Source: Trypanosoma brucei (lineage: Eukaryota). Taken from it: DNA of 64,000 nucleotides. The notes under the pieces are model-generated. The model saw nothing but the letters and a program-made list of their open reading frames with translations, was not told the origin of the DNA and did not search any database. The DNA is taken from the NCBI GenBank assembly GCA_000002445.1, contig CP000070.1, positions 1,088,001-1,152,000 on the forward strand. The letters run 5' to 3'. Positions 15,647-51,871 of the stretch are shown here, one piece after another; position 1 is the stretch's first letter, and each line of letters begins with the position of its first letter. The translations under genes were made by a program, and so were the position numbers.

Positions 15647-15800
15647 AACGGAAGTACGTTGTCGTCAGAAGGAAAAACCTCCCCGAGGTAGAGAGTGCCG
15701 AAAAAGTGCAAGAAGGTGGCAGTCGCACTGTGTAACATATCGGAGAGAGAAAGGGAGCAATAAAGGCTCAGCGCGTGAAGGGGCCGAAAGGGAGGACACA

Positions 15801-26520: not shown

Positions 26521-26697
26521 CCTGGACGTTTGCGCGCCCACTCACATACACGATAGTGAAGAAAAGGCATACAAAAAGAGTAAAAAAAATAAATAAAAGA
26601 AGTAAGGGAAAGTAAAGGAAAAAAAAAGAGGTAGCGTGTGCATCGAGTTCGACTGCGTCAAGAAAACCGGAATATAATACATCCTTAAGCACGACAA

Positions 26698-27615: not shown

Positions 27616-29157
27616 TGACCTGTTGACTGAGCGGCAGATACATACAACACTCTCATGTACACGCGCCATGAGAAACTTTCATTTAGTGAAGTTGTTTTGC
27701 ATGTTCGTATCAAACTGTCGCCCCCCCTTTTTTTTACTTCTCTTTTCTTCTTTTTGTTTTTCTTTTTTTTTTCTTGTTGTTTTATGTTTAAATACTTTTA
27801 TGGTTTGAGGGTAATAACAAAACGGAAAAGAAAAAACAGAGTGGATTGCTGTGGTATCGTTGCACACATCCTTTTCTTATTATTGTCTCACTTTTCTCAT
27901 CTCCCTTCCTTTCTTTTTTTTTTTTTACCGGTGTGCACCAGTAGCCACGGCGGGAAAGGGGGGAAGGAATGAGAAATGAATCAAAGAGGAAGAGAAATAA
28001 ACAACAATAATGAAAAAAAAAAGATTCTTTTATATTAATTCGTATGACCTTTGAATAACGAAACGGAGAGGTTAGCGGTGAATTATCTCAAGCAGAACCG
28101 TGTGACGCATGACAGGCGTAACACATGCGGTACGACGCGTCTCTTCAGTCACCACACGATGAGGACTGAAGGATTGTTGAAGGCAATGTTGTGCTGTTGG
28201 CCTCTTGTTTTTTTTGTTTTGTTTTGTTTTTTTCGTGGGAATTGTTGGGCACAGGACGCGTTTTCCTCTTCTTTTTTTCTTCCTTCTTTTTTTTTTTTTA
28301 CTTTCTCTTCTGTTTTATCTTATCACTTTACGTGTTGTTAAACATTTTTTTTTGTTGTTGTTGTTCTTTTCCCTTACAACTTATGTTTCGCTAGTATGAA
28401 AGGAAAATGAATTTAAAATTATAAGGGAAGAAAAATGGTGGAGTTTCGCCGTTGCTGTTGTTGTTGGTATTTTTATTTCTGACATAATTGTGTGGCTTTT
28501 GCTTTTCGTTCATTTGGCATACAGCTACCAGTGACACTACAAAATAGGCGGAGAAGGGAAAGAAAACAGAGCAGGAAAAAGAAAAAAAACCGCGAAAGAG
28601 AAGGGAAGAAATAGGAGGAAACAAGATGAAACGAAACGAAACGAAAACAGAGGGGATTGTTGTTTTTGTTTTTTGTTTTTGTTTTTTTTTGTCTTTGGTT
28701 TTGGTTTCTGATACTGGAAAAGATTGAGACAACATCGCTGGTGTTAGGCTTCAAAGTACTCACATTTTTCCTTTTTATTTTATTTTATTTTATTCTTTTT
28801 CAATATTTATACCTCGTTTCAGTGCCTCTCTCCCTCATTTTGTTCCTCCCATACGGTGTGGAAAGTTTATTTATTTATGTGGAGGGGGGAGGGGACGTGA
28901 CGGGGTTCGTAAATTGTGTTCGTTTATTTTATCTACTCACTCGACTCTCTCCATGCTTCTTTTTTTTTTCCTCTTCCTTTTTTTGTTTTTTTTATGTTTT
29001 TGTGCCATGTTTCACGAATTGTAACGTATTTATAATTCCTCCGTATGATTGACACATTACAGTGAGTTGCGTTCCTCCTAAAAAAAAAAAGTATACGCAC
29101 ACACACGCACACAGGTATAAATATATTTACATATTTTATTTTGTTTATAGATATACA

Positions 29158-29751
29158 ATGAGTCAGTTTGGTCAACTTGTGTGCTTCAAGTGCCGCAAGA
29201 TATTAAGTTATCCCTTAGGAGCCGTAAGTTGCCGTTGCCGCAACTGCAACACCATCAATCCTGCACAAAACCTCCACATCACCTGCGGTTGTTGCTTTCG
29301 GCATATTTTGGTACCCATCAACACACTCACATTTTTATGCCCCTGTTGTGCCACAATAACGGATATACCGCAGTCACTTCTTCCATTAGTGGAAGGTCCA
29401 GTAAGTGTTGGTACAGAAACGGATCGTGTAGTCAAGACGATTTATGTCACATACCCCGGGAAAGCAAAACCAAAGGATAAAAATCGAAAGGGAATGAAAC
29501 ATGATGATGATGATGATGATGATGATAGGGAAAGTGAAGAAGAGGGTTGCAGCTCTGGTGGTGGTGGTAATATTGTGATGGGCGGAAAGGCAACGGCAAC
29601 TGGAAGGGAAGGAGGAGGTTGTAAAACAGGACCTCTGGATGGTGATGATGGTGATGATGATGAGCAACTTGTCGGTGATGGCCAGCGGAGCGTATCAAAC
29701 CGACATGAGGGATCGAATGTTATTATGGTAGTAGGAACACGCATATTATAG
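29158..29751 (+). CDS. Small protein with two tandem LSD1-type zinc fingers followed by an acidic (poly-Asp) and Gly-rich tail
   Basis: From the Met at 29158: MSQFGQLVCFKCRKILSYPLGAVSCRCRNCNTIN matches the zf-LSD1 consensus CxxCRxxLxYPxGAxxVxCxxCxxxT. A second, degenerate copy is CGCCFRHILVPINTLTFLCPCCATIT. The (GAT)8 run encodes D8. The ORF-track start at 29062 lies in low-complexity upstream sequence and is unlikely. Confidence 0.5.
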   Translation: MSQFGQLVCFKCRKILSYPLGAVSCRCRNCNTINPAQNLHITCGCCFRHILVPINTLTFLCPCCATITDIPQSLLPLVEGPVSVGTETDRVVKTIYVTYPGKAKPKDKNRKGMKHDDDDDDDDRESEEEGCSSGGGGNIVMGGKATATGREGGGCKTGPLDGDDGDDDEQLVGDGQRSVSNRHEGSNVIMVVGTRIL

Positions 29752-31022
29752 ATATTTCATCTGCATGTGTTACGCGGAAGAAAGCAACCTCGAATGTGTA
29801 CCCGAGCACTTATGGCGCAGCTGTGCTGTTTTATTGCTACGACCTTACCAGCGCTTTAACTGGTAGACAGGGGAAAGGGAATCTAGTGGAGTGTGTATAA
29901 TCCTCATATGCGGCTTCGCAACATAACTTTCCGCAATTTGCTTTCGCGTCTTCTTGTCTCTCTTTTTTTTTTTTGTCTTTTGCATTCTTTGCTTCCTAAC
30001 CCTTTGGAGGAACTTCCCTGCGTGTGAGTGTTCCTTTTTTTTTTATTATTGTTGTTGCTGTGATATGTTGCGTTGCGTGTATTCATGTAACTCAGATCGA
30101 ATCTCAAGAAAAAAAAAAAGAAAGAAAAAAAGCAATAATAACTTGAAAATAATGTGAATGCATTTGAATATATTAGGAAATTTAAAGGTTCTTACTTTTT
30201 CTTTTCAGAGGCGGCCGATCTCGCTTGAATTCCCATCTTTTTATTTCATGCATTTCACCGTAAACAAAAGGAAGCAACGGAGGATATGGGCGAATAGGAT
30301 TGGTACTCTTGTGTGCATAAACGCACACGTGTCATTGAAATGATTACTGTTCGAATCAGAGTGAGACAAGTTGTCAATTCGTGATGAATGTGGATGATTG
30401 TGCAAACTAGGGAGACGGGAAAGTGTGCGGGAGGATGCAGTTAATGTGGTTAAAGCTTAAAGCGTAAAAGAACCACACACGCACAAAAAAAAAAGAAAGA
30501 ATAACGGAGAAAGAAAAGCGAAGCTCATTCCTCATTTTTTTTTTCACGGCATTGTTTATTGTTACGACAGCTGGTGATGTTTGCCTCCCTCTTTATTCAA
30601 AGAATAAATAAATAAATAAAGGAGGAGAGAAACGAGAGGGTTAAAGCTGTGCCATTTGATTGCGCTGCACATACGGTGATTCCTGCTTTTCATACGTACG
30701 GTTTTGGAGCAATGGGATGGAGGGATTGGAGGATTTCATTGGAACGACTATAAAGTGCCAACTTGCCCAAACATGAGGGAAACCATAAAGAAGGTGGAGG
30801 CATGGAGTTGCAAATATTAGTGAGGGTTCGTCAAACATATTGGTTTCACTTAAAACAGCATTTTCACCCATTCATTTATGGGAATATAATCCGCATTTAC
30901 GGTTCTCACCCCCTTTTTTCCTTCTTCTTCTGCTCCCTCCTTTTGACAACTGGGTCGAGTAGCGGCGTGCTGTTGCCTTGTCTGCGGGGCAACGTGCTTT
31001 GAAAAAGGATTAAAATTGAGTA

Positions 31023-36664: not shown

Positions 36665-37117
36665 CCCAACCGCTGGGGAGAAGAGCAATAATGAAGGTAA
36701 CACATCCCAGCAATGTATCGCTGGTAATAAATCAGTCATGTGGTGGCTTTGCATCTTAATTAAAGTTCTACCTTGTGACAAAGGGCTGCAGCCTATGCTA
36801 GGAAGTAAAATGGAGCGTTAATTTTATTCGGTGGGGAGTATTATTGTAAAGGTCCCTCAATAAACGTGTAAGACGTAACCCAAAGTAGGGGCTTAAGGAA
36901 GGATGGAAGGGCACTAGAGCATGTGTCCAGTCGCAGGTGCACACGCATAAGCCCCAATGTTCCTCTCCTTGTATTCCCGTGTTCCGCCTACACGCGAACA
37001 CCCGTACAAACTCAAGAGCACAAATCACTGCATCATTGTTTCTCTTCACTCTTCCCATAATTTTTCAATGTTTGCACAGACCCCATAGCAAGTAAGTGGA
37101 GAAAAAGGTAACACACA

Positions 37118-37858
37118 GTGAGTAAGAAAAGCAGCAACGACGAGAAACAAAAGTTTGGCGTAATGGTGATGAAGGCTTTCCCCCTTTCCCTGTTAGCGGC
37201 AACCACTGTGTTATTACTGCTGCTTCCTGTTCCTGGTAGGTGTGCTGATTGCTTTGCTCATTCAAATGATTACTCCACTCCCGGGGAGCCGTTCGGCAAA
37301 TCGAAGCACACAATCACCTTAAGTGGTGGGAACTGGGGCACTGTCATAGGCAGTGACGGAAATGCACTAAAGACGGCCCTTCTACTTGACATTTACGCTC
37401 AAATACTGCGACGGCATGCTTTTAACACTTCCGTCACCGTCGACGATATGCGACAGGGAGAGCATGGCATGGAAGCTGAAGTAACCGTTACACAGGTTTT
37501 GTTGACTGATGTCCCTAGGGCCGACTTGCAGCATACATGGAATCCCAACGAAATAACATCGTTGTTAATGCAAGGGGTGTACAAACACACAAAAGATAAA
37601 CACGATCCGCATTCAGACGTCCATCTCGTTAGTGTCAGACTCCCCGCTGCGACTACAGAGCTCCACAAGTGTGGGAAGGCCTGTTGGACTGTTCGGTTAA
37701 TAGGCATCTTTATAGGGATAGCCATGATTCTCATTGCAGCATACACTATATTCATAACGCGTAAATGGGAAAAGCAAGCGGAAAAAGAACCGGATGACGA
37801 CTCTTCGCGGGAACCATTGCCAGAACAAGAACAGAGGAGGTCGAGAACACGCGTGTAG
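37118..37858 (+). CDS. Small type-I membrane protein, copy A of a 4-member family (signal peptide, about 150-aa ectodomain, one TM, short charged tail)
   Basis: MVMKAFPLSLLAATTVLLLLLPVPGRC forms a signal peptide. The C-terminal LIGIFIGIAMILIAAYTIFI is a TM segment followed by a charged tail. The motifs KTALLLDIYAQILRRHAF, LQHTWNPNEITSLLMQGVYKHT and LHKCGKACW are shared with the paralogues at 46100, 47900 and 49539. The likely true start is the Met at 37163 or 37169. Confidence 0.6.
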   Translation: MSKKSSNDEKQKFGVMVMKAFPLSLLAATTVLLLLLPVPGRCADCFAHSNDYSTPGEPFGKSKHTITLSGGNWGTVIGSDGNALKTALLLDIYAQILRRHAFNTSVTVDDMRQGEHGMEAEVTVTQVLLTDVPRADLQHTWNPNEITSLLMQGVYKHTKDKHDPHSDVHLVSVRLPAATTELHKCGKACWTVRLIGIFIGIAMILIAAYTIFITRKWEKQAEKEPDDDSSREPLPEQEQRRSRTRV

Positions 37859-37879: not shown

Positions 37880-40800
37880 GACAACAATCCGAAGTAATGC
37901 GCGGTTAGTTGCGGACAACATTCCACTGCGTCTCTTTGATATACTTTTTTTTGCTTTTGCTTTTCGCTGCATATACCAGCACCCCACTCCACGTGTGGTG
38001 AGGAGCTTGGGGTGGCATTCTTTGTTTGAACGCCTCCCATCCCCTTTTATGTTATTTTATGTTTTTTTTCCCCCTCTTGCTCGTTTATTCCCGCCCACCT
38101 TGTTGCTTTGACTGCCCTATGTACGACTGATAAATATGCATTGGACAACACATGGCTACTATTCAGTGTCTAAATACATCTTGCACACGCGGTCTTCCTG
38201 TTACTGCATGCACGGAAACTACTTTGAGCCCCCCCTTCCTTTCCCTCCCTACTTTTTCATCTTTCATATTATACCACATACATTTTGTGTATTACTCATT
38301 TTACCGTTAGCACCACCTTGCAAAGTTGTTAGCGTAATATGGGAATGTGTGTATTATATACTTCCCAATTGAATCCATATTCGGGAAGTTTTCTGTCTCC
38401 TCACTCGCCTCGTTGAAATCCTGTTAGTTGTCTCGGTATCAATGATAATATTGATGTGTGTTGAATGGTGGTTTATGGATGTGACTGTATTTTGTTGCGT
38501 ATGAACCACTGGAATGATTAAAAGGTCCTTTTAGCACTGCGGGGTTATGAATATTAATAGCCTGCACTCGTGTCAATGTATCTGGTAGTATTTTCACACC
38601 CCACCCACGTGCAACTTTTTACCTTTGCTCTGAGTTATTCTACTCCACACACCCATCGTTGCAACATTATTGGAAGTTAAGTGCTTTAGTAGTCATTAAT
38701 TTTGTAACGACTCTAATTAACGCGGTTCCGGTCGACAAAATTAAGCACTGCTGACACCCACTTCTTTATTTCCCCCACCTGGAAACAATGACTCGGCAAT
38801 CCGATGTGCAAAAATCCATGAGGACAATTTCTGATGGAGCGGAAAAGGCAGTAGAAGTACGGAAATATGACGAGAAAGCGGTGCAGCAGCGGATGCAGAA
38901 ACTTTATGCCGATGTGGCGAAAAAGAAATTAGCTGAGAAGAAGCGAGCTGATGAGTTGGCGCAGATCCCGGTGTCGGAGGAGGATGTGCAACTTTTGGTG
39001 CGTGAATGCGGTTGGGAGGCGCAGGTGGCACAACAGAAACTCCGTGAGAGGAATGGAAGCGTTGTGGCGGTTCTTCGAGATGTTGCGGGACTCCCGAAGG
39101 CCAAAGCATCGAGTGGAACCTCCTGAAACCTGACAAACAAAAAAAAACATTTACAATATAATGGTTATGACTGATTGAATGAGAGCAGCAGCGAGAGAAA
39201 CGGAAGTTGGCGGGGCCCTTTTGGTTGACTTGTTACGAGATGCTCAGAGGTGTGGAGCGTAAGCATGTGTGTAATCCCACTGAAGACAATTGCATGGTGA
39301 TGCAGGGGATGTTTGAGTTCATACAAATCTCAAACAAACACTGTAGAGGCGTTGAACTCATTAATGTCAAACTCCATCTGATTATTTCAGGCACGAATGC
39401 CCTCATGTAGGATGAAAAGGATTGCCACTTCCTTCATGTCGCAACGGATTCGCTATCAATTGCAACAGCTCCGACCTACAGCTTGTTGTGAGTTTTTAAC
39501 GCGCTTGGACTTCGGTAATGAACTTGGAACTTGATTTCCTGAGGATCGCCGCGGTGCATAATTTGTTCCTTCCCCATTTGATGTGAGCAGTGCGGTGCAC
39601 TTAACCATTGTGGTATCACTGCTTCGCTTTCTATGAGTGTGTGCTGTACAAATCTAATTCCTCTTCCACTATTTACCGTATTTGAAGCTCATTAAAGGAA
39701 CCATAATTAGCAAAGGGGGCACACTCAGTTGTCAAGGCAGTGGAACCCACAACATCCGCGCACAGCGGTGACACAAATGCATAATAGCTGCTTTTCATAC
39801 ACCTCTATTGTGGGGATGTTGATTCTCAAAGCGTAGTGGTTGTAATTTGAAATCAGGCATGGAGCGTCTGGGTAGGCGCATCGAGGCCAATCGCTTTATT
39901 ATGGGACAGTTGGATGGTATGCGAGGGTGCACGCCTGCTGTTGGTTGCAGCGGCAGCCTCAAAAAATTAAGTTATGCAACACTCGGTGTATTGCGCCGGG
40001 AGAATATGCGGCGGTGCGGGTGAGCCCTTTCACTGCACTTTGGGCAGCGGGGGTTGGGATGGTATCTACAGGGGATCTACTTCACATTGGAAAGTAAACG
40101 TCACAACTGCTGTCTCGACTGGTCGCTGATAGAACCCGTGAGGTGGAGAGAGAGACTGCTAGACCGGAGTTCCCTTCCAGGACGGATTAGCATCGGCAAA
40201 CCGAGAGGCACAAGCACGCCCTCGTTGTTGAATTACTGATCGGCATTCTGTTGGAGGTATGAAGGAATCGCAGTGGCGGCGGTGTTGATTAAAGTTTGAG
40301 AAACCTCGAGGAAAGGGAAAACCTCGTGTCGCAAAAGTCACTATTTCCCGGGAGTCACACCGGCTATAGAGGCTGAAATTGAATACTTGAGAAAACAGTT
40401 GGGCGACTGTAAAGAACAACTTATAAAATACAGAGCACACTTTGAGCAGGTTAACCACGTTATTAAGAATAGACGAATTAAAGGAAATGGTTCAGCAGCA
40501 AGCTCAGACATTGGAAAAGCTCGAAAAATATTATCAAGAACAAAACGCCCAAAAGGTCCCGTGGCCGCTGATCCTCGGAAACGATGTCTGTAAACCCCCA
40601 ACCTTCCTCCATAGACCGTCAACAGAGCACTCAGATGTACCAACATGTTTCCACTACTCCGCTCGGCTTTAGTATAAACTGGGTCGGATGGAAAAACAGA
40701 GCGGAAACCTCTGAAGGACTTTTACAATTGTATGACGAATGTGGGACTACAATTGGGAATCCTGAGAGGCCTTCATGGTACAATTCTGTAAATTAATGGG

Positions 40801-41515
40801 GGGGAAGTGAATCATCTCTACATTTTTGGACGTTCACAAGATGGGTACGGTATTATGACCACTTCGTGGCTACGGCGAATAGAATGCCAATACAATATAT
40901 AACAACAGGGGCAGCTATGTATAAAACATGGCGAATGGAAATGGCAGCACAGAAAAGAGGAGTATTTATCCCACGGGCAATACAAGAAGGATTGGATACT
41001 GAAGGAGGTATCAATGTATGATAAGATGGCAAACGCAGCTGCAAAACAAAGAGCTCAGAGAAGTCGCCAAGGACGGAATTGAAGCAATTTCAACAACCAT
41101 CAGCGTCGAACAAGCCCAAACGGGCGAAGGAAGTCCCCATCGCGGAAACAGTAGCAAAGGCGAGACTGAGCGGGGCTCGTAAAATATACCGCTCCCGACA
41201 TAAGAGAATGAAACAAAAGGCGAAGAAAGAATGGTCAAAACTACAAATCCACAAGAACAGTGAATATGTTCGAAAACACATGGGAAACAAGAAAATTCTA
41301 TGGGGGTGTTGCGATCCGCGCGCGGATATACGCAACAAAGAGATACGGGGATGCACAAATAAAATAGTAGCTCCGGCACCACCTAACCCAGTGACTGTCC
41401 CCCGCGCGCAGATTAGGCCCTGTTCGTCAGGGAACTCTGAGCGAGAGCACTGTCCGGACCTTAAAATGCCCATTCAAGCACCGGAAGTCAAGCCGATGCT
41501 ATGGCGTAAACTATT
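37880..41515. repeat. Left arm (3636 bp) of a near-perfect inverted repeat
   Basis: The boundaries were located by direct reverse-complement comparison. gacaacaatccgaagtaatgcgcggttagtt starting at 37880 matches the reverse complement ending at 46117. Identity ends after ctatt at 41515, which pairs with aatag at 42482-42486. Every ORF-track peptide inside this arm has an identical mirror on the opposite strand of the right arm. One C/T mismatch was seen near the outer edge, at 37912 versus 46076. Confidence 0.9.
38788..39126 (+). CDS. HYPK-like / UBA-like small protein (copy 1, in the left arm)
   Basis: The 112-aa protein has a long charged helix (KKKLAEKKRADELAQ) followed by a C-terminal EEDVQLLVRECGWEAQVAQQKLRERNGSVVAVLRDV block that resembles the NAC-alpha/HYPK C-terminal UBA-like domain. 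Confidence 0.5.
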   Translation: MTRQSDVQKSMRTISDGAEKAVEVRKYDEKAVQQRMQKLYADVAKKKLAEKKRADELAQIPVSEEDVQLLVRECGWEAQVAQQKLRERNGSVVAVLRDVAGLPKAKASSGTS

Positions 41516-41528
41516 AGGCTGGCATTAA
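40387..41528 (+). mobile_element. Left-arm mirror copy of the 5' part of a degenerate retroelement (frameshifted ORF1-like region plus a basic K/R-rich ORF), truncated at the arm/spacer junction
   Basis: Three overlapping + ORFs in different frames (40387-40593, 40442-40672, 40584-40796) look like one frameshifted coiled-coil ORF. They are followed by 41079-41528, which encodes the basic protein MKQFQQPSASNKPKRAKE.... On the other arm this ORF reads on into the spacer, where RT motifs follow. Confidence 0.45.
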
Positions 41529-42481
41529 CACGCTTGCACGCATTGTTGAAAAAAACTGAACTTCCTCATTATTTCTTGGAACCAGTCTAGCGGCTCAGTT
41601 GCTAATACTTTTGCCGTAGCCACCAGGCTTCCAAATAATTTTTCAAGGTCTCGCAGGTCGATTAATTTCAAATATTCTTGTGTCGTCATCTGAATAAATT
41701 GTCTAGCCACATTATTTTCAATTTATTCAGATGTTTTTCTGTTACTTGTACACTTTTATTATTGTGGTCCAAGACCGCTCCTATGGAATCATAACTGGTG
41801 GCGTAAGGCAGCGGTTCGGATAATGTCACGCAGTATTTCTCCACCTTGCCGTGGAGGAGGCTAATTATTTTTGGCGCTTGTTTTTCCGTAATTGCTAGTC
41901 TGAAATTATCGATCCAGACATCACCGTCTATCATCCGGTGCTCTCAACGCGTTACCTGCGAGTGCCCCGTTAATGTCATTACCAACCACTGCATAATTTC
42001 GCAGCTTGTTGTTAATCCCATGGGCAATTGTGTCATTTCCAAAGGCGAACCATCTGCAGTTGCAATGGAGAAGCATGCGGTGGTGTTTACCGGCAGGTCA
42101 ATTTCATAGTAACTTGCTTTTAAATCACCCACTATTGCTCCAGCAGCGGAGAGTATGTCCAGGTACTCCTGGAACGGGTTTAATTCCACTATACAGCGAT
42201 AATCACACACATTATCTAAATAGTCATTCGTCGTGTTTGGCCATACCAATAGTCTCCTCCTGTTTTTCCAGGGTTCATCGACTGTAGATGCACGGGCGAC
42301 TGGGGGATCCACTGTCGATTTCGTGATATTCGCGCTGAGTACGGTCTTGGCATCACTGGATGATAGCCACTAACGCGCTGGGACGTCGCCTATTTCGTCC
42401 CGTCTTACGTATTGCGCGGCATCGGCTAATTGCCGGAGCAGCACTTGAATTCTTTCTTGCACCTTATTTTTTGTCGAACGC
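41516..42481. other. Unique 966-bp spacer of the palindrome, holding the RT fragment of the retroelement
   Basis: This region has no mirror partner. It is fully occupied by minus-strand ORFs that continue the right-arm retroelement. Confidence 0.8.
41525..42312 (-). pseudogene. Frameshifted reverse-transcriptase fragment (Ty3/gypsy- or DIRS/VIPER-like) with a degenerate YxDD box
   Basis: The minus-strand ORF 41944-42312 contains GDLKASYYEIDL...TTACFSIATADGSPLEMTQLPMGLTTSCEIMQWLV. This is collinear with RT motifs iDLrsGYhQI ... KTAFrt.yG.yEf.vmPFGLtNAPa.FQ. The next ORF, 41686-41934 in another frame, has DVWIDNFRLAIT where VYlDDILIfS is expected. Frameshifts separate three consecutive ORFs. 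Confidence 0.55.
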
Positions 42482-43610
42482 AATAGTTTACGCCATAGCA
42501 TCGGCTTGACTTCCGGTGCTTGAATGGGCATTTTAAGGTCCGGACAGTGCTCTCGCTCAGAGTTCCCTGACGAACAGGGCCTAATCTGCGCGCGGGGGAC
42601 AGTCACTGGGTTAGGTGGTGCCGGAGCTACTATTTTATTTGTGCATCCCCGTATCTCTTTGTTGCGTATATCCGCGCGCGGATCGCAACACCCCCATAGA
42701 ATTTTCTTGTTTCCCATGTGTTTTCGAACATATTCACTGTTCTTGTGGATTTGTAGTTTTGACCATTCTTTCTTCGCCTTTTGTTTCATTCTCTTATGTC
42801 GGGAGCGGTATATTTTACGAGCCCCGCTCAGTCTCGCCTTTGCTACTGTTTCCGCGATGGGGACTTCCTTCGCCCGTTTGGGCTTGTTCGACGCTGATGG
42901 TTGTTGAAATTGCTTCAATTCCGTCCTTGGCGACTTCTCTGAGCTCTTTGTTTTGCAGCTGCGTTTGCCATCTTATCATACATTGATACCTCCTTCAGTA
43001 TCCAATCCTTCTTGTATTGCCCGTGGGATAAATACTCCTCTTTTCTGTGCTGCCATTTCCATTCGCCATGTTTTATACATAGCTGCCCCTGTTGTTATAT
43101 ATTGTATTGGCATTCTATTCGCCGTAGCCACGAAGTGGTCATAATACCGTACCCATCTTGTGAACGTCCAAAAATGTAGAGATGATTCACTTCCCCCCCA
43201 TTAATTTACAGAATTGTACCATGAAGGCCTCTCAGGATTCCCAATTGTAGTCCCACATTCGTCATACAATTGTAAAAGTCCTTCAGAGGTTTCCGCTCTG
43301 TTTTTCCATCCGACCCAGTTTATACTAAAGCCGAGCGGAGTAGTGGAAACATGTTGGTACATCTGAGTGCTCTGTTGACGGTCTATGGAGGAAGGTTGGG
43401 GGTTTACAGACATCGTTTCCGAGGATCAGCGGCCACGGGACCTTTTGGGCGTTTTGTTCTTGATAATATTTTTCGAGCTTTTCCAATGTCTGAGCTTGCT
43501 GCTGAACCATTTCCTTTAATTCGTCTATTCTTAATAACGTGGTTAACCTGCTCAAAGTGTGCTCTGTATTTTATAAGTTGTTCTTTACAGTCGCCCAACT
43601 GTTTTCTCAA
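41525..43610 (-). mobile_element. Degenerate VIPER/DIRS- or LTR-class retroelement remnant on the minus strand: a frameshifted ORF1-like region, a basic ORF (42370-42918) and the RT fragment. It is truncated where it abuts the left arm.
   Basis: The minus-strand ORFs 43404-43610, 43325-43555, 43201-43413, 42370-42918, 41944-42312, 41686-41934 and 41525-41710 are contiguous in one direction. The RT motifs are as described for the RT-fragment pseudogene feature. The element ends within about 10 bp of the palindrome junction at 41515/41516. Confidence 0.5.
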
Positions 43611-46117
43611 GTATTCAATTTCAGCCTCTATAGCCGGTGTGACTCCCGGGAAATAGTGACTTTTGCGACACGAGGTTTTCCCTTTCCTCGAGGTTTCTCA
43701 AACTTTAATCAACACCGCCGCCACTGCGATTCCTTCATACCTCCAACAGAATGCCGATCAGTAATTCAACAACGAGGGCGTGCTTGTGCCTCTCGGTTTG
43801 CCGATGCTAATCCGTCCTGGAAGGGAACTCCGGTCTAGCAGTCTCTCTCTCCACCTCACGGGTTCTATCAGCGACCAGTCGAGACAGCAGTTGTGACGTT
43901 TACTTTCCAATGTGAAGTAGATCCCCTGTAGATACCATCCCAACCCCCGCTGCCCAAAGTGCAGTGAAAGGGCTCACCCGCACCGCCGCATATTCTCCCG
44001 GCGCAATACACCGAGTGTTGCATAACTTAATTTTTTGAGGCTGCCGCTGCAACCAACAGCAGGCGTGCACCCTCGCATACCATCCAACTGTCCCATAATA
44101 AAGCGATTGGCCTCGATGCGCCTACCCAGACGCTCCATGCCTGATTTCAAATTACAACCACTACGCTTTGAGAATCAACATCCCCACAATAGAGGTGTAT
44201 GAAAAGCAGCTATTATGCATTTGTGTCACCGCTGTGCGCGGATGTTGTGGGTTCCACTGCCTTGACAACTGAGTGTGCCCCCTTTGCTAATTATGGTTCC
44301 TTTAATGAGCTTCAAATACGGTAAATAGTGGAAGAGGAATTAGATTTGTACAGCACACACTCATAGAAAGCGAAGCAGTGATACCACAATGGTTAAGTGC
44401 ACCGCACTGCTCACATCAAATGGGGAAGGAACAAATTATGCACCGCGGCGATCCTCAGGAAATCAAGTTCCAAGTTCATTACCGAAGTCCAAGCGCGTTA
44501 AAAACTCACAACAAGCTGTAGGTCGGAGCTGTTGCAATTGATAGCGAATCCGTTGCGACATGAAGGAAGTGGCAATCCTTTTCATCCTACATGAGGGCAT
44601 TCGTGCCTGAAATAATCAGATGGAGTTTGACATTAATGAGTTCAACGCCTCTACAGTGTTTGTTTGAGATTTGTATGAACTCAAACATCCCCTGCATCAC
44701 CATGCAATTGTCTTCAGTGGGATTACACACATGCTTACGCTCCACACCTCTGAGCATCTCGTAACAAGTCAACCAAAAGGGCCCCGCCAACTTCCGTTTC
44801 TCTCGCTGCTGCTCTCATTCAATCAGTCATAACCATTATATTGTAAATGTTTTTTTTTGTTTGTCAGGTTTCAGGAGGTTCCACTCGATGCTTTGGCCTT
44901 CGGGAGTCCCGCAACATCTCGAAGAACCGCCACAACGCTTCCATTCCTCTCACGGAGTTTCTGTTGTGCCACCTGCGCCTCCCAACCGCATTCACGCACC
45001 AAAAGTTGCACATCCTCCTCCGACACCGGGATCTGCGCCAACTCATCAGCTCGCTTCTTCTCAGCTAATTTCTTTTTCGCCACATCGGCATAAAGTTTCT
45101 GCATCCGCTGCTGCACCGCTTTCTCGTCATATTTCCGTACTTCTACTGCCTTTTCCGCTCCATCAGAAATTGTCCTCATGGATTTTTGCACATCGGATTG
45201 CCGAGTCATTGTTTCCAGGTGGGGGAAATAAAGAAGTGGGTGTCAGCAGTGCTTAATTTTGTCGACCGGAACCGCGTTAATTAGAGTCGTTACAAAATTA
45301 ATGACTACTAAAGCACTTAACTTCCAATAATGTTGCAACGATGGGTGTGTGGAGTAGAATAACTCAGAGCAAAGGTAAAAAGTTGCACGTGGGTGGGGTG
45401 TGAAAATACTACCAGATACATTGACACGAGTGCAGGCTATTAATATTCATAACCCCGCAGTGCTAAAAGGACCTTTTAATCATTCCAGTGGTTCATACGC
45501 AACAAAATACAGTCACATCCATAAACCACCATTCAACACACATCAATATTATCATTGATACCGAGACAACTAACAGGATTTCAACGAGGCGAGTGAGGAG
45601 ACAGAAAACTTCCCGAATATGGATTCAATTGGGAAGTATATAATACACACATTCCCATATTACGCTAACAACTTTGCAAGGTGGTGCTAACGGTAAAATG
45701 AGTAATACACAAAATGTATGTGGTATAATATGAAAGATGAAAAAGTAGGGAGGGAAAGGAAGGGGGGGCTCAAAGTAGTTTCCGTGCATGCAGTAACAGG
45801 AAGACCGCGTGTGCAAGATGTATTTAGACACTGAATAGTAGCCATGTGTTGTCCAATGCATATTTATCAGTCGTACATAGGGCAGTCAAAGCAACAAGGT
45901 GGGCGGGAATAAACGAGCAAGAGGGGGAAAAAAAACATAAAATAACATAAAAGGGGATGGGAGGCGTTCAAACAAAGAATGCCACCCCAAGCTCCTCACC
46001 ACACGTGGAGTGGGGTGCTGGTATATGCAGCGAAAAGCAAAAGCAAAAAAAAGTATATCAAAGAGACGCAGTGGAATGTTGTCCACAACTAACCGCGCAT
46101 TACTTCGGATTGTTGTC
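42482..46117. repeat. Right arm (3636 bp) of the inverted repeat
   Basis: It is the reverse complement of 37880-41515, as described for the left arm. Confidence 0.9.
44871..45209 (-). CDS. HYPK-like / UBA-like small protein (copy 2, in the right arm; identical translation to copy 1)
   Basis: A 112-aa translation identical to that of 38788-39126. Confidence 0.5.
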   Translation of the reverse strand: MTRQSDVQKSMRTISDGAEKAVEVRKYDEKAVQQRMQKLYADVAKKKLAEKKRADELAQIPVSEEDVQLLVRECGWEAQVAQQKLRERNGSVVAVLRDVAGLPKAKASSGTS

Positions 46118-46975
46118 AGCACTATTGCTATCAGATATGCCTTCGTTACTTTCTGTTTCCATTCTGGCATCGTCGACGTTTAGGACATTGACTGCATGTT
46201 TATTTGGAGTAGGAATGTCTTCCTCTTCTTCTTCTTCATCTTCCTCTTTTTCTGCATCCCTTCTCCATTTAAAAATTAAGAATACGCAAATTGCAGAAAC
46301 GAGAGCCATAAAAAACAAAATGACGCCCGAGAAGGTTCGCAGAGCCGCGCAGCCCTCCCCGCACCTATGAAGTTTTTCACTTATGGTCGGGTTCTTGACG
46401 CTCAGGAGGCGCACGGCACCGTTGCTACCGGTTTCGCTGTTACCACCGTACTCATTGTACAAGTTGTTTGTGTGTTTATACGTTCCTTGCATTAGTAACG
46501 ACGATATCTCGCTGGGATTCCATGTGTGCTGCATCTTCTCGCTCGGGGTACCATTTATCAAAACTTGCGTAATGGTCACTGTAACACTCATGTGTTTACC
46601 TCGAGTATTTACGTCGTTGATGTCAGCTGTGGTGTCGAAAGCGTGTCTCCGTAATATTTGAGCGTAAATATCAAGAAGAAGAGCCGTCTTTAGTTTCCTT
46701 TCACCCCCCGTATACACACCACCCCACTTATCGCCACTAAAAGTGATTACATGTTTCGATGTGCCCAACTGTTCTTCGTCAGTGGAATTATTGTCCCTCG
46801 GTGTTGCAAAGCAATTTTTCGAGAGAGTGGGCATGGGGATCAGCAACAGCATTGCTGCTGTTGTAAGAGAAAATGAAACCTTCACTGTCATTATGCTGAA
46901 AAGGGCTTTCTCTTTTCCTTTCTTTTTGTAAGCTACCCGTGTTTTACTTCTTTGCTCTAAGCCAAAACTTACCAA
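46100..46975 (-). CDS. Small type-I membrane protein family, copy B. It has a divergent N-terminus and a longer acidic tail. The likely start is the Met at 46891.
   Basis: MTVKVSFSLTTAAMLLLIPMPTLS is a signal peptide. KTALLLDIYAQILRRHAF, MQHTWNPSEISSLLMQGTYKHT and LHRCGEGCAAL match family motifs. The TM segment is VILFFMALVSAICVFLIF. The last 5 codons and the stop lie inside the right palindrome arm. Confidence 0.6.
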   Translation of the reverse strand: MVSFGLEQRSKTRVAYKKKGKEKALFSIMTVKVSFSLTTAAMLLLIPMPTLSKNCFATPRDNNSTDEEQLGTSKHVITFSGDKWGGVYTGGERKLKTALLLDIYAQILRRHAFDTTADINDVNTRGKHMSVTVTITQVLINGTPSEKMQHTWNPSEISSLLMQGTYKHTNNLYNEYGGNSETGSNGAVRLLSVKNPTISEKLHRCGEGCAALRTFSGVILFFMALVSAICVFLIFKWRRDAEKEEDEEEEEEDIPTPNKHAVNVLNVDDARMETESNEGISDSNSADNNPK

Positions 46976-47899: not shown

Positions 47900-48613
47900 T
47901 TATTTGTTTGTTTCCTCAGTCCTATAGTGGTCTTGATTGTAAGGATGATTGGCATTGCTCTCATCTTTTTCTTTTGGTTCCCCACGGCAACAGTTGACGA
48001 TTAGGTAAATGATCAAAATAAGTAAAGAAACCCCCATTAAAATAATAACTACCATCGCCAGCTTTAATAGTCGCCTGCATGTGTCATCGCACTCACCAAA
48101 ATGCAGTTTTCCATCATGCACCTTCACGGAGATGAGTTCCGGTCTCTTCACACCTTCGTACAAACTTAGCGTTTTACTATAATCCGTCTGCGTAATAAGT
48201 GAATTCACCTCCGCAGGCGGCCAAATGTGTTGCCTCTCAGGATTTGAAACTTGTGCCCTGACGGTTTGTACAACAACTATGAGTATTTCGATAAAGTTGT
48301 GTGTGGGGTCGAATGAGGTAATTAAAACCTCCGTCAGAAAACTTCCATTCCGTTGCACGTAACGATCGATGTCGCTCACAAGTATTTCCCTCAGTTGTTC
48401 CTCTTTCTGCTGGACAGTTGCCGCCCAATTGTCGCCATCAAATTTCACGGTATGTTTTGATGTTGAGGACTGCTGGATGTCGTCAGCACACCTACCAGGA
48501 ACAGGAAGCAGCAGTAATAACACAGTGGTTGCCGCTAACAGGGAAAGGTGGAAAGCCTTCATCACCATTACGCCAAACTTTTGTTTCTCGTCGTTGCTGC
48601 TTTTCTTACTCAC
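47900..48613 (-). CDS. Small type-I membrane protein family, copy C
   Basis: The N-terminal 40 aa are identical to copy A (MSKKSSNDEKQKFGVMVMKAF.LSLLAATTVLLLLLPVPGRCAD), as is the 5' flank. The ectodomain is divergent (RQHIWPPAEVNSLITQTDYSKT; LHFGECDDTCRRL). A C-terminal TM segment and short tail follow. Confidence 0.6.
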   Translation of the reverse strand: MSKKSSNDEKQKFGVMVMKAFHLSLLAATTVLLLLLPVPGRCADDIQQSSTSKHTVKFDGDNWAATVQQKEEQLREILVSDIDRYVQRNGSFLTEVLITSFDPTHNFIEILIVVVQTVRAQVSNPERQHIWPPAEVNSLITQTDYSKTLSLYEGVKRPELISVKVHDGKLHFGECDDTCRRLLKLAMVVIILMGVSLLILIIYLIVNCCRGEPKEKDESNANHPYNQDHYRTEETNK

Positions 48614-49538
48614 TGTGTGTTACCTTTTTCTCCACTTACTTGCTATGGGGTCTGTGCAAACATTGAAAAATTATGGGAAGAGTGAAGAGAAACAATGGTG
48701 CAGTGATTTGTGCTCTTGAGTTTGTACGGGTGTGCGCGTGTATTAAGTCAAGAAATGAGTGAGATAACAATGACCAATAAACAGGAGTCAGAAAGAGTAT
48801 TTGTACAAAGAAAAATTAGTGAACGATGCGGGAGAGCAACAACACAAGCTCAATAACAATAACGGAAAAAAGCAATGAAGACGACAGTCGCTTTGCCTAC
48901 TTGTCATCACAAATGTTAATTTCCTGCTGATGGGCAATAACCCAATGCCTACCCTCGGTAATTTGGTGAGATTCAGAGAAAAAAAGCAAAGGAATGTGGG
49001 AATTTCTTCGATCGAATGGAAACCCCTCAAAAAGGAGGAAAAAGTAAACATACGTAAAAATAACTCCCCCTCCTTCTGTCACACGAATATACAAGAATAT
49101 ATGTATTTTTACGCACACGTGAATTAAATGTTGCGCGCAACAAGAAATAAAACACAAGAGAACTTACATTGCCATTTTTTGTTTTAGTATCATCTGTTTA
49201 AGACAAATATCAACCGGTGAAGCACAAAGAGTTGTTGAAACAGAGATAAATAGATAAATTCAATAGTGTATATGAAGCACGGAGTGATGACAGTCGAAAA
49301 TACGAAGGAACGGGATGCGCATAACACAGAAGAGTGAATACGGTGCAATGACAAATCAAAAGAAAAAATACAACTCACTCGATATCATGAGACTTCTACA
49401 ATCAGAAAGCATTTGCTATTAGCGTGGAAAAAGAATGAAGAAGCAATAAAATATGTATAACAATGGCACGTACCTATAGCCACAGCTAGTATTGGGGGCA
49501 TCGAACCTGATGGGGCTAGTCCGCCGTTTTCGGTCACT

Positions 49539-50219
49539 TTAATCCCTTTCTTCAAGTTTCGGACGCCGGAAATGCGAATAAATCCAAATGTACGCCGTCA
49601 CACTAACTATTATGGTCATAGCAGCGAGAGACACGGCCACCACACCTCTAAGAATTTGACAGCTCGTGCCACATAATGGCGGACCCGGGGGAACCAAAGG
49701 AAGTCTGACGGTAATGAGTTCAACATCCCCATGGGGTTTGTACGTGCTTTTTGTGTGTTCAAATTTTCCCTGCATTATCATAGAGTTGGCCTCACTGGGA
49801 TTCCACACATGCTGCAACTCAGGCGTGGGGTCATCAGCCAATGCAACTTGTGTAACGGTCACTTCAACTTCCATTTCCCCCTCTCTCACTTTCATATTGT
49901 TGATGGTAACGGTGGTGTTGACGGCGTACTCCCGTTGCGTTTGCAAGTAAATGTCGAGCAAAAGTGACTTCCTCAACTTCGCTTCATCACTTATGACAAT
50001 TTCGTCCCATTTCGTGCCTTTAAAGGTGATTATGTGCTTCGATTTGCCGAACTCCGTTGGTTGCAAGTACAACATCGTACCATTGAGGCAGTCAGAGTGT
50101 GCGGGAACAGGAAGCAGCAGTAATAACACAGTGGTTGCCGCTAACAGGGAAAGGGGGAAAGCCTTCATCACCATTACGCCAAACTTTTGTTTCTCGTCGT
50201 TGCTGCTTTTCTTACTCAC
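49539..50219 (-). CDS. Small type-I membrane protein family, copy D
   Basis: It shares the N-terminus and 5' flank with copies A and C. Family motifs are RKSLLLDIYLQTQREYAV and LQHVWNPSEANSMIMQGKFEHT. The TM segment is VAVSLAAMTIIVSVTAYIWIY. Confidence 0.6.
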   Translation of the reverse strand: MSKKSSNDEKQKFGVMVMKAFPLSLLAATTVLLLLLPVPAHSDCLNGTMLYLQPTEFGKSKHIITFKGTKWDEIVISDEAKLRKSLLLDIYLQTQREYAVNTTVTINNMKVREGEMEVEVTVTQVALADDPTPELQHVWNPSEANSMIMQGKFEHTKSTYKPHGDVELITVRLPLVPPGPPLCGTSCQILRGVVAVSLAAMTIIVSVTAYIWIYSHFRRPKLEERD

Positions 50220-51871
50220 TGTGTGTTACCTTTTTCTCCACTTACTTGCTATGGGGTCTGTGCAAACATTGAAAAATTATGGGAAGAGTGAAGAGAAACA
50301 ATGGTGCAGTGATTTGTGCTCTTGAGTTTGTACGGGTGTGCGCGTGTATTAAGTCAAGAAATGAGTGAGATAACAATGACCAATAACGCTACTTGATGAT
50401 GGAAACAAAAAGGGTACACGCATAAGAAGTCTACCACCATTCCATGGTGTGATTATTGCAAACTCGAAGGTAGTGTCGATTAACCACCCAGACGAGCCAT
50501 CTCCAGTTGTCGTTACTGTTGTTAATAGACCGAAAACAAGCCCTAGTAAGCGGTTAATTACTGGAGGAAGGATTTGCTCCTCTTTATTGGTGCTGCATAC
50601 TAACTTGTTATCATTGTTCCTTCAGCACTGCTGTTCAGTACGATAGGAGGAGGGGATTTGAATATATATATATATATATAAACAACTTTGCAGAACCAAA
50701 ATGCATCACTGAATTCCAACGAAGCGTTAAGACGAAAAATGATAACCCCCTCTCAGCATTGTCGACGCCAAGTTTATCGTTTTAAATACAAACATGCACG
50801 GAAATACGTATGATGCGTGCCCATAAACCCGTTGGATCAAATATTCACGCGGCGGCACTCTGTAAAATATAAAATGCCCGTCATGCGGCACGACGGAACG
50901 AGCGGGTCAACTTGTGGTTTCTACCCTTTTGTATCTTCAGGGCGCAATGGTGCTTCCACAACGCACCGAAGCTACTCAATGTCGGTTCACTATCGTGTGG
51001 CAACTTCATGACTAGGCCATTTCGATTTTGAAGTTATACTTCACTACTTAGTCGCCCCACGCTCCATTTCATTTGGAAGTACCGTATCTAACGCGGTGCC
51101 AAGGCTTGTTTTTGCTCCTTTGGCAGAACAAAAACATTCAGTAGCAAACGGTTGGCAGTAAAGTTTGAGATGGGCCGACTAAGAACTCAGAGCCGTTGGC
51201 GCGGATGTCCCCACGGGTTGGTTTAGTATGCCCAAGTGACGTGCTCAGTGAGTTCTTCAGCTGAGTCCTTACGTATTGTGTGAAGGCCGTAGTTAAGCGG
51301 CAGCATTCGTGGGGCCAGATTATTTGACCAAATAGCTGCGACAAGTGAAGGAATACCTTCAGCAGCCTAGTTCTTGTCCATAGTTCCCCTAGAGATAGCT
51401 CTTATGAAGGAGAAAAAGTGAAGGCAACCCATTGGATGTTAGAAGTGAAGCGACGCGAAAGGGGGAAACAGTAAATCTTGCGGATGAAGAAATGCAAACG
51501 TATATCTCATGAGAGTTTGGCTCGAAAGGGAGGCGTTTTGTCAAAAGCGTACGAATGGAAAGGGAAAGAAGGGACAAGTGGCATTTGCGTACTCCCTTTA
51601 AAGTTAGGAACCACAGTTGCACGTCTTCCCGGATGCTCATCCATCCACCTCTTCGCACTGTCACCAGGGCCCCCCTGCCGATTGGGACATGGCTCTCATA
51701 TCAAATAACGCTTTCAAAAGCCTTAACAATTAATAGTCATAAATAATAATAATAATATTGATAGTAGTCGGCACGATGCTGTGCCATGAACGAAGACCGA
51801 CATCCATTCAGTCACAACGCAGTTTCACGCCGTGGAGAACTGCAACGCTGGATTCAGCTTTTTCCTGGTGA

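What the first reader, a model, noticed from the sequence alone, without database searches (positions are those of the whole stretch)
37880..46117. Near-perfect 3.6-kb inverted repeat with a 966-bp spacer sitting exactly on a convergent strand-switch region
Seen in sequence: 37880-41515 is the reverse complement of 42482-46117. Every ORF-track peptide in one arm has an identical twin on the other strand of the other arm. I found a single C/T mismatch, near the outer edge. Each arm carries a complete HYPK/UBA-like gene and the 5' half of a retroelement. The window's + gene array runs into the left arm and its - gene array runs into the right arm, so RNA polymerases from both sides converge on the palindrome centre. 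Any read-through transcript would fold into a hairpin with a stem of more than 3 kb. In RNAi-competent trypanosomes, long inverted repeats, retroposons and convergent strand-switch regions are the known sources of endogenous siRNAs (established knowledge), so this locus is a strong candidate siRNA-generating and transcription-terminating structure. It is also a probable cruciform or recombination hotspot. If both HYPK-like copies are real, the gene is held in two copies that are kept identical, presumably by gene conversion. An alternative reading is an assembly artefact at a fold-back.
Basis: partly seen in the sequence, partly recalled or inferred. Interest (0 to 1): 0.8.

Follow-up and report, generated by a model that had tools for sequence, protein, structure and literature searches.

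The report
Known trypanosome siRNA inverted repeat IR3
The 3.6-kb near-perfect inverted repeat is real, but it is the already published Trypanosoma brucei chromosome 7 locus "IR3", which was shown in 2012 to be the parasite's most productive inverted-repeat source of small interfering RNAs.

Summary
The arms are 37880-41515 and 42482-46117, 3,636 nt each, with one mismatch (37912) and a 966-nt spacer. They sit where the + gene array meets the - gene array.

The locus is not new. Tschudi et al. 2012 (PMC3447711) list Tb927_07_IR3 with a 3,636-bp repeat, 1 mismatch, 372,045 AGO1-bound small-RNA reads, PCR confirmation and a Northern blot. Both of their IR3 probes match this window perfectly, once per arm. 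Reynolds et al. 2016 (PMC4721609) list the same interval as a convergent strand-switch region whose small RNAs rise when histone H3.V is deleted.

An assembly artefact is excluded: the same repeat is present in three other Trypanozoon assemblies.

What I add:
- The arms evolve in concert. Between strains there are 40-45 substitutions; within a genome there are 1-12.
- The "retroelement" is a truncated VIPER-like reverse-transcriptase fragment. It lies mostly in the spacer and runs on from the right arm, so 41515/41516 is the rearrangement joint.
- T. vivax, T. cruzi and T. melophagium have HYPK on one strand only, so the inverted copy is derived.
- T. vivax has an independent perfect inverted repeat of VIPER-like elements downstream of NudC.

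The parts
37880..41515 (.). Left arm of the inverted repeat (3,636 nt)
   Evidence: reverse complement of 42482-46117 with one mismatch. The same arm is present in three other assemblies.
42482..46117 (.). Right arm of the inverted repeat (3,636 nt)
   Evidence: The reverse-transcriptase homology and the ORF 42370-42918 (-) run across its inner edge into the spacer without a break.
41516..42481 (-). Unique 966-nt spacer; a degenerate reverse-transcriptase pseudogene read on the - strand
   Evidence: It diverges 2.5-2.8% between strains, against 1.1-1.2% for the arms. Tschudi et al. 2012 report that the spacer also yields small RNAs.
38788..39126 (+). HYPK-like UBA-domain gene, left copy (112 aa)
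   Evidence: Pfam PF19026 at 2e-11. The identical protein is annotated twice in TREU927 (AAZ12488.1, AAZ12489.1) and twice in DAL972. The coding sequence has 0-1 substitutions between strains.
44871..45209 (-). HYPK-like UBA-domain gene, right copy (112 aa, identical protein)
41695..42594 (-). Truncated VIPER-like (RT/RNase H class) reverse-transcriptase fragment. About 110 nt lie in the right arm (mirrored at 41403-41515) and the rest in the spacer.
   Evidence: phmmer with ORF 41944-42312(-) gave 155 hits, best 2.6e-12. The hits carry Pfam RVT_1, RT_RNaseH or RVT_3. tblastn of the hits back to the window gave E-values down to 4.5e-29 over 42594-41695. Named relatives come from Angomonas deanei ('TcC31.12'), Leptomonas pyrrhocoris and T. 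vivax.
41515..41516 (.). Head-to-head rearrangement joint, where the truncated reverse-transcriptase fragment abuts the inverted copy of its own upstream region
   Evidence: The T. equiperdum contig L005 crosses this joint by 32 nt.
40233..40593 (.). Region targeted by the two published IR3 Northern probes (40233-40257 and 40569-40593; mirrored at 43740-43764 and 43404-43428)
   Evidence: exact matches, once per arm, with 0 expected by chance.
37912..37912 (.). The single arm-to-arm mismatch (pairs with 46085)
   Evidence: It matches the '99% (1)' entry for IR3 in Table 3 of PMC3447711.
37118..37858 (+). Last gene of the + array before the left arm: a paralogue of a small membrane-protein family (famL)
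   Evidence: It is a mosaic: the 5' 260 nt are 99% identical, in inverted orientation, to famR2/famR3, and the body is 69% identical to famR1.
46100..46975 (-). Last gene of the - array before the right arm (famR1). Its last 17 nt and stop codon lie inside the arm.

Best explanation
This is Tb927_07_IR3, the known long inverted-repeat siRNA locus at a convergent strand-switch region of Trypanosoma brucei chromosome 7.

Two polycistronic units converge here. One ends WDR3 > fam > HYPK on the + strand. The other ends NudC > fam x3 > HYPK on the - strand. Each ends in one arm of the repeat.

Proposed mechanism:
- RNA polymerase II that runs past the HYPK gene transcribes the inner arm, the spacer and the opposite arm.
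- Double-stranded RNA then forms in two ways: by intramolecular fold-back of the 3.6-kb arms, and by pairing of overlapping transcripts from the two sides.
- The Dicers DCL1 and DCL2 cut this RNA into siRNAs of about 22-25 nt, which load into AGO1.
- Histone H3.V limits this transcription. H3.V is reported to be enriched at these siRNA regions.

Status of each step:
- Published: the small-RNA output, its partial dependence on both Dicers, and its rise in the H3.V knockout.
- Inferred: the relative share of hairpin versus convergent transcripts.
- Shown here: the two arms are kept nearly identical by arm-to-arm gene conversion.
- Inferred: the structure arose in the T. brucei lineage as an inverted duplication whose inner joint lies inside a degenerate VIPER-like retroelement.
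For: - Identity with IR3: the arm length and mismatch count are the same. Both published probes match exactly, once per arm.
- siRNA production: 372,045 AGO1-bound reads, falling to 73% of wild type in dcl1-/- and 41% in dcl2-/-. There was a Northern blot, and small RNAs also came from the spacer.
- cSSR status and H3.V effect: chr7:1126324-1135240 gave 569 RPM in wild type and 1440 RPM in the knockout; for 21-27-nt reads P = 0.0014.
- Convergent gene arrays are confirmed in the window.
- The structure is real. It is present with the same boundaries in GCA_003543875.1 and in T. b. gambiense DAL972. It is crossed at the joint by a T. equiperdum contig. The authors confirmed it by PCR in strain YTat 1.1.
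- Concerted evolution: at 40 sites both arms of this genome differ from all four arms of the other two strains. Arm-to-arm differences within a genome are 1, 2 and 12.
- Derived state: T. vivax, T. cruzi and T. melophagium have WDR3, HYPK and the fam array all on one strand, with no inverted HYPK.
Against: - Nothing contradicts the identification.
- The hairpin route is not proven. The authors noted that siRNAs come only from restricted parts of the arms and also from the spacer, which points to dual-strand transcription.
- IR3 depends only partly on either Dicer.
- The H3.V effect on 21-27-nt reads is small (logFC 0.11).
- No biological role for these siRNAs has been shown.
- The near identity of the arms in the Sanger assemblies could be slightly inflated by consensus building. 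Even so, the 40 fixed between-strain differences are shared by both arms in all three genomes.
Confidence: 0.92

Rival explanations
1. It is an assembly fold-back artefact: only one arm exists in the genome.
For: Fold-back chimeras do occur in assemblies. Short Logan contigs collapse the two arms into one contig that starts 3 nt inside the outer edge.
Against: - The same two arms and spacer are present in two further chromosome-scale assemblies. There the arms differ from each other by 2 and 12 substitutions, so they were resolved as separate copies.
- A T. equiperdum contig reads right flank, right arm, spacer and 32 nt of the left arm.
- The two arms have different flanks.
- Tschudi et al. 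confirmed IR3 by PCR in a further strain.
Confidence: 0.01
2. The double-stranded RNA comes essentially from convergent overlapping transcription, as at ordinary T. brucei convergent transcription units. On this view the inverted repeat is an incidental scar of a rearrangement at a synteny break. It adds little to siRNA output and has no selected function.
For: - siRNAs also arise from the unique spacer, which cannot pair within one transcript.
- All convergent units in T. brucei give some siRNAs.
- In T. vivax, HYPK and NudC lie on different contigs, so the junction is a synteny break.
- The spacer and inner arms are degenerate retroelement sequence.
Against: - IR3 gave 372,045 reads. The best ordinary convergent unit gave 33,373 and most gave 28-9,000.
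- IR3 keeps 41% of its reads without DCL2, while ordinary units fall to a few percent or less. That indicates a different substrate.
- All seven long inverted repeats produce small RNAs.
Confidence: 0.2
3. The arms are near-identical because the duplication is very recent, not because of continuing gene conversion.
For: There is only one mismatch in 3,636 nt in this genome.
Against: - The repeat has identical boundaries in T. b. brucei, T. b. gambiense and T. equiperdum. It therefore predates their split.
- Arms of different strains nevertheless differ by 40-45 substitutions, while arms within a genome differ by 1-12.
- 49 lineage-specific changes are present in both arms of a genome.
Confidence: 0.04

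Closest known systems
Tb927_07_IR3 (Tschudi et al. 2012, BMC Genomics 13:427; PMC3447711)
   Same: It is the same object. It shares chromosome 7, the 3,636-bp arms and the single mismatch, and both published probe sequences map to the arms.
   Different: Nothing differs in the object itself. I found no discussion in the papers read of the gene content of the arms (HYPK), the VIPER-like reverse-transcriptase fragment, the joint, the concerted evolution across strains or the outgroup arrangement.
T. brucei convergent transcription units / cSSR siRNA loci (Tschudi 2012; Reynolds et al. 2016, PMC4721609)
   Same: Two Pol II polycistronic units converge here. The interval is listed among the cSSRs, it produces small RNAs, and these increase when H3.V is lost.
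   Different: Output is one to four orders of magnitude higher, and it depends much less on the nuclear Dicer DCL2 than at ordinary units. Here the overlap region is itself a long inverted repeat.
Hairpin-RNA (hpRNA) endo-siRNA loci of Drosophila and long inverted-repeat siRNA loci of plants
   Same: A long inverted repeat is transcribed through and processed by Dicer into Argonaute-loaded siRNAs (from my own knowledge; cited as the analogy in PMC3447711).
   Different: The arms here are far longer and contain an intact, duplicated protein-coding gene. No trans target is known. The hairpin transcript has not been demonstrated.
Large palindromes with arm-to-arm gene conversion (human Y/X chromosome palindromes, plastid inverted repeats)
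   Same: The arms are kilobases long with a unique spacer, are over 99.5% identical, carry duplicated genes and evolve in concert (the comparison rests on established knowledge).
   Different: The scale, the lineage and the link to siRNA production all differ. No spacer-orientation isomers were seen: all four assemblies share one orientation.
VIPER / VIPER-like tyrosine-recombinase retroelements of trypanosomatids (Ribeiro et al. 2019, PMC6681497)
   Same: The reverse-transcriptase fragment is most similar to RT/RNase H proteins from species reported to hold VIPER copies: A. deanei, Lep. pyrrhocoris, T. vivax and T. cruzi.
   Different: Only a truncated, stop-interrupted RT N-terminal part is recognisable. 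No tyrosine recombinase, RNase H or terminal repeats were found.

Membership tests
Tb927_07_IR3 (published long inverted-repeat siRNA locus) | Two inverted arms of 3,636 bp with one mismatch | tested here: met
   compared with Table 3 of PMC3447711.
Tb927_07_IR3 (published long inverted-repeat siRNA locus) | The IR3-specific Northern probe sequences lie in the repeat | tested here: met
   Both 25-mers match with 0 mismatches, once per arm, with 0 expected by chance.
Tb927_07_IR3 (published long inverted-repeat siRNA locus) | AGO1-bound 22-25-nt small RNAs of both polarities, dependent on Dicer | not testable with these tools
   Reported in the paper: 372,045 reads; dcl1-/- 73% and dcl2-/- 41% of wild type; Northern blot. 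No read data are available here.
Convergent strand-switch region (cSSR) | Gene arrays on opposite strands pointing towards each other | tested here: met
   ORFs are on + up to 37858 and on - from 46100, with conserved genes on both sides.
Convergent strand-switch region (cSSR) | Termination marks (H3.V, base J) and effects on small RNA or transcription | not testable with these tools
   Reynolds 2016 lists chr7:1126324-1135240 among the cSSRs, with small RNAs rising in the H3.V knockout. The paper states that siRNA regions are enriched in H3.V.
HYPK-type UBA-domain protein | Pfam PF19026 (UBA_HYPK) above the gathering score | tested here: met
   43.5 bits against a cut-off of 27, E = 2e-11. 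Orthologues occur in six other Trypanosoma species.
VIPER-like tyrosine-recombinase retroelement | Reverse transcriptase of the RT/RNase H class related to VIPER/TATE | tested here: met
   There were 155 phmmer hits, and the hits carry RVT_1 or RT_RNaseH. The closest named relatives are trypanosomatid. The fragment itself does not reach any Pfam threshold.
VIPER-like tyrosine-recombinase retroelement | Tyrosine-recombinase ORF and RNase H domain | tested here: not met
   No Pfam hit was found in any stop-free segment of the inner arm. Homology to the relatives ends at about 41695 and does not extend upstream of 42594. The copy is truncated and degenerate.
VIPER-like tyrosine-recombinase retroelement | Terminal repeats / SIRE-type ends | not tested
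Assembly fold-back artefact | Structure seen in one assembly only, with no sequence crossing the joints | tested here: not met
   Three further assemblies hold it, including a contig across the 41515/41516 joint. PCR confirmation is reported.

The most novel reading that the evidence does not exclude
The inverted repeat may be a maintained architecture and not only an incidental siRNA source. In both T. brucei and T. vivax, the polycistronic unit that ends with NudC terminates in a near-perfect, tail-to-tail inverted duplication of a VIPER-like retroelement. The breakpoints and arm contents differ between the two species. In T. brucei the arms are actively homogenised, while the spacer drifts about twice as fast. 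This would fit selection for a hairpin-forming locus that acts as a master source of siRNAs against VIPER-like elements, or as a barrier at the end of a transcription unit. The published probes, presumably chosen from abundant siRNAs, lie in the retroelement-side part of the arm and not in HYPK.
Probability: 0.12. Interest if true: 0.55.

Novelty: already known. Interest (0 to 1): 0.22.

Why it matters
The locus matters biologically. It is the largest inverted-repeat source of endogenous siRNAs in T. brucei, and it sits at a site where two transcription units terminate.

This has been known, with experimental support, since 2012, so rediscovering it changes nothing for specialists.

The additions made here are modest:
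- a measured case for arm-to-arm gene conversion;
- the identification of the inner joint inside a VIPER-like reverse-transcriptase pseudogene;
- evidence that the inverted HYPK copy is derived;
- a comparable inverted repeat in T. vivax.

These could help anyone who wants to test why trypanosomes tolerate and maintain such palindromes. The original authors left that question open.

Tried and rejected
- Pfam scans of the spacer and inner-arm ORFs gave no family. My first impression of reverse-transcriptase motifs, formed by eye, therefore had to be tested another way.
- The word-indexed protein search with the 226-aa conceptual reverse-transcriptase translation found nothing. The exhaustive phmmer search with the 122-aa ORF then found 155 relatives.
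- tRNA and Rfam scans of the whole window were empty. No structural RNA genes sit at this strand switch.
- I considered that the arms might be the inverted terminal repeats of a DIRS-type element. I rejected this because each arm contains a conserved host gene (HYPK) and the end of a host paralogue.
- I considered that the repeat originally extended into the flanking fam genes. Identity drops abruptly from 99.97% to 69% or nothing at 37880/46117. famL is a mosaic of other paralogues. An older, larger duplication can be neither shown nor excluded.
- I tried to decide which arm is the original. Synteny favours the left side, with the order WDR3 > fam > HYPK as in the outgroups. Retroelement continuity favours the right side. 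Recombination between the arms would invert the spacer and make the two states interchangeable, so this cannot be resolved.
- T. congolense, the key outgroup, could not be examined. Its NudC protein has no contig on record, and its HYPK was not returned.
- Literature searches for the assembly accession GCA_003543875 and for 'TcC31' gave nothing useful. I believe from memory that GCA_003543875.1 is the long-read Lister 427 assembly, but I could not verify this.


Full report
**1. The observation**

The repeat finder reports arms at 37880-41515 and 42482-46117. They are 3,636 nt long, 100% complementary after rounding, and 966 nt apart. A base-by-base comparison finds one mismatch: 37912 C against the complement of 46085. 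Complementarity collapses to background within a few bases outside both the outer and the inner edges. ORFs in one arm have identical twins on the other strand of the other arm.

Each arm holds a 112-aa ORF (38788-39126 on +, 44871-45209 on -) that matches Pfam UBA_HYPK at 2e-11, above the curated threshold.

All long ORFs are on the + strand up to 37858 and on the - strand from 46100. The flanking genes are recognisable conserved genes: a WDR3/Utp12 homologue on the left, and NudC and others on the right.

**2. Identity of the locus**

The exact HYPK protein is encoded twice, in inverted orientation about 6.1 kb apart, in two chromosome-scale records. These are GCA_003543875.1 CM010678.1 and T. 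b. gambiense DAL972 FN554970.1. It is encoded once on a 7-kb T. equiperdum contig. The protein carries TREU927 accessions AAZ12488.1 and AAZ12489.1, and DAL972 accessions CBH12559.1 and CBH12563.1. The window is 98.4-98.7% identical to the first two assemblies and 99.4-99.9% identical to the T. equiperdum contig.

A literature search found Tschudi et al. 2012 (PMC3447711). Their Table 3 lists Tb927_07_IR3 at chromosome 7 1,125,000-1,134,900, with a repeat length of 3,636 bp and identity "99% (1)" (one mismatch). It gave 372,045 AGO1-bound small-RNA reads, the highest of seven inverted repeats. Reads fell to 73% of wild type in dcl1-/- and 41% in dcl2-/-. The repeat was verified by PCR in strain YTat 1.1 and by Northern blot.

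I took the two IR3 probe oligonucleotides from their supplementary file and searched the window. Each matches with no mismatch exactly twice, once per arm: 40233-40257/43740-43764 and 40569-40593/43404-43428. The window is therefore T. brucei TREU927 chromosome 7, and the finding is IR3.

Reynolds et al. 2016 (PMC4721609) state that small RNAs rise in the H3.V knockout at all characterised siRNA loci, including the inverted repeats; their S2 Fig maps small RNAs to IR3. They also state that these regions are enriched in H3.V. Their S2 Table lists chr7:1126324-1135240 among the cSSRs, with 569 RPM in wild type and 1440 RPM in the knockout. For 21-27-nt reads, logFC was 0.11 and P = 0.0014.

Zheng et al. 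2013 (PMC3683921) report that siRNA sources are consistent between the slender bloodstream and procyclic forms.

**3. Not an assembly artefact**

The two other chromosome assemblies hold the same arms with the same boundaries and a 960-nt spacer in the same orientation. Their arms differ from each other by 12 substitutions (GCA_003543875.1) and 2 substitutions (DAL972), so they were assembled as distinct copies.

The T. equiperdum contig runs from the right flank through the right arm and spacer and 32 nt into the left arm, so it crosses the 41515/41516 joint. Three short Logan contigs start 3 nt inside the outer edge, as expected where a collapsed repeat meets two different flanks.

**4. Concerted evolution**

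I aligned the six arms from three genomes, plus the T. equiperdum arm.

| Comparison | Substitutions |
|---|---|
| Arms of this genome vs arms of the other two strains | 40-45 |
| Arm vs arm, this genome | 1 |
| Arm vs arm, DAL972 | 2 |
| Arm vs arm, GCA_003543875.1 | 12 |

- At 40 alignment columns, spread from 38228 to 41471, both arms of this genome share one state and all four other arms share another.
- A further 9 columns show a change specific to one other strain and present in both of its arms.
- Apart from three boundary-trimming columns at the inner edge, only one column (37882) shows a left-versus-right difference shared across strains.

The repeat has the same boundaries in all these strains, so it predates their divergence. 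The arms must therefore have been homogenised repeatedly by gene conversion.

Between strains, the arms diverge by 1.1-1.2%. That is similar to the neighbouring flank (1.4-1.5%). The HYPK coding sequence shows 0-0.3% divergence and the spacer 2.5-2.8%.

**5. What the arms and spacer contain**

Pfam did not recognise any ORF in the spacer or inner arm. A word-indexed protein search also failed.

An exhaustive phmmer search with the spacer ORF 41944-42312 (-) found 155 proteins, best E = 2.6e-12. Those tested carry RVT_1, RT_RNaseH or RVT_3 at the matching position. The named ones come from Angomonas deanei ("TcC31.12"), Leptomonas pyrrhocoris and T. vivax. Ribeiro et al. 2019 report VIPER copies in these species.

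Searching these proteins back against the window places the reverse-transcriptase homology at about 42594 to 41695 on the - strand, with E-values down to 4.5e-29. It begins about 110 nt inside the right arm and crosses the arm/spacer boundary at 42482 without a break. It fills most of the spacer and stops short of the RNase H part. The ORF 42370-42918 (-) also crosses that boundary.

Three conclusions follow.
- The right arm plus the spacer is one continuous, truncated, stop-ridden VIPER-like element.
- The left inner edge (41515/41516) is the rearrangement joint.

No tyrosine recombinase was found, so I describe the fragment as VIPER-like and do not file it as a VIPER member.

**6. Comparison with other species**

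In T. vivax, T. cruzi (four strains) and T. melophagium, the order is zf-LSD1, two small genes, WDR3, HYPK and then an array of the same small membrane-protein family. The membrane-protein or ion-channel genes between WDR3 and HYPK vary by species. All of these genes are on one strand, and there is no inverted HYPK copy within 10 kb. T. vivax has two HYPK copies, but in direct tandem.

The right-hand unit of the window (p550, p934, p277, p513, p556, NudC) is conserved in order and strand in T. vivax and T. theileri. What follows NudC differs in each species. In T. vivax, NudC and HYPK lie on different multi-megabase contigs.

The T. brucei arrangement is therefore derived. Two ancestral units meet at the repeat, and an inverted copy of HYPK lies on one side. 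Which arm is the original cannot be decided. Synteny favours the left and retroelement continuity favours the right, and recombination between the arms would interconvert the two states. T. congolense could not be examined.

**7. The outer edges**

Beyond 37880/46117 the flanks are paralogous fam genes that are only 69% identical over part of their length. The left gene is a mosaic: its first 260 nt are 99% identical, in inverted orientation, to the second and third right-hand paralogues. The drop from 99.97% identity is abrupt, and it falls at the same place in all strains.

**8. Mechanism**

Best-supported account:
- Pol II from either unit runs past HYPK into the inner arm, spacer and opposite arm.
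- Double-stranded RNA forms by fold-back and by pairing of convergent transcripts.
- DCL1 and DCL2 dice it and AGO1 binds the products.
- H3.V restrains the transcription.

The small-RNA output, its Dicer dependence and the H3.V effect are published. The split between the hairpin and convergent routes is inferred.

The hairpin contributes, to judge from two differences from ordinary convergent units. IR3 yields 10 to 10,000 times more reads. It also keeps 41% of them without DCL2, where ordinary units keep a few percent or less. The spacer-derived small RNAs show that dual-strand transcription also occurs.

A DNA cruciform is unlikely with a 966-nt spacer. This rests on established knowledge of palindrome behaviour and was not tested here.

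**9. Verdict**

It is, however, a rediscovery of a locus characterised experimentally in 2012 and revisited in 2016. Novelty: already known. Interest is low. The remaining open question is why such palindromes are maintained.

Noticed in passing
L015:15295-20906 (T. vivax GCA_021307395.1, SOPI01000326.1, about 4.4 kb downstream of NudC): T. vivax has its own perfect inverted repeat. The arms are 15439-17777 and 18423-20761 (2,339 nt, 100%), continuing at 96% to the end of the locus, with a 645-nt spacer. Each arm holds an RT/RNase H region of the same VIPER-like class, arranged tail to tail (16042-17638 on +, 18565-20158 on -; best E = 1.6e-81). The arm content is not homologous to the T. brucei arm genes. 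I could not tell whether it is real or an assembly effect, or what lies beyond it.
   Followed up: partly
L009:8128-13036 (T. vivax, SOPI01000403.1): The unit made of a fam gene plus HYPK is duplicated in direct tandem, with a period of 2,270-2,339 nt. T. vivax therefore also has two HYPK copies, but head to tail instead of inverted. An ingi-like element (Exo_endo_phos_2, RVT_1) follows the array.
   Followed up: partly
L012:16600-19159 (+) and L011:14327-15921 (-), T. cruzi loci syntenic with the left side of the window: A VIPER-like RT/RNase H element lies a few kb downstream of the HYPK-fam array in two T. cruzi assemblies, in opposite orientations. It is absent within 10 kb in two other T. 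cruzi assemblies and in T. melophagium. The same retroelement class therefore recurs at the end of this gene array in distant species.
   Followed up: partly
window 36989-37248 versus 48483-48742 and 50104-50348: The 5' end and upstream region of the left fam gene is 99% identical, in inverted orientation, to the 5' ends of the second and third right-hand paralogues 11-13 kb away. The rest of the gene is only 69-80% identical to any paralogue. This suggests a separate gene-conversion tract between paralogues on opposite strands.
   Followed up: partly
window 41516-42481: Between strains, the unique spacer diverges about twice as fast (2.5-2.8%) as the arms (1.1-1.2%) or the neighbouring flank (1.4-1.5%). 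The numbers are small: 24-27 substitutions.
   Followed up: no
L002:13696-17337 (right arm in GCA_003543875.1): This arm is a mosaic. At six sites (window-equivalent 38063-38543 and 40436) it shares the TREU927 state, while its partner arm shares the DAL972 state. This could reflect a conversion tract, a mixed haplotype or consensus noise.
   Followed up: no
Proteins P0018, P0053 and cluster members (Leptomonas pyrrhocoris XP_015662839.1, XP_015654205.1 and others): Several VIPER-like reverse-transcriptase proteins of Leptomonas pyrrhocoris carry the database name 'putative target of rapamycin (TOR) kinase 1'. This looks like a propagated misannotation.
   Followed up: no
window 3000-6000 and 21000-31000: These stretches have a clearly lower G+C content (0.37-0.43) than the 0.46-0.53 seen across most of the window. 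Their cause was not examined.
   Followed up: no
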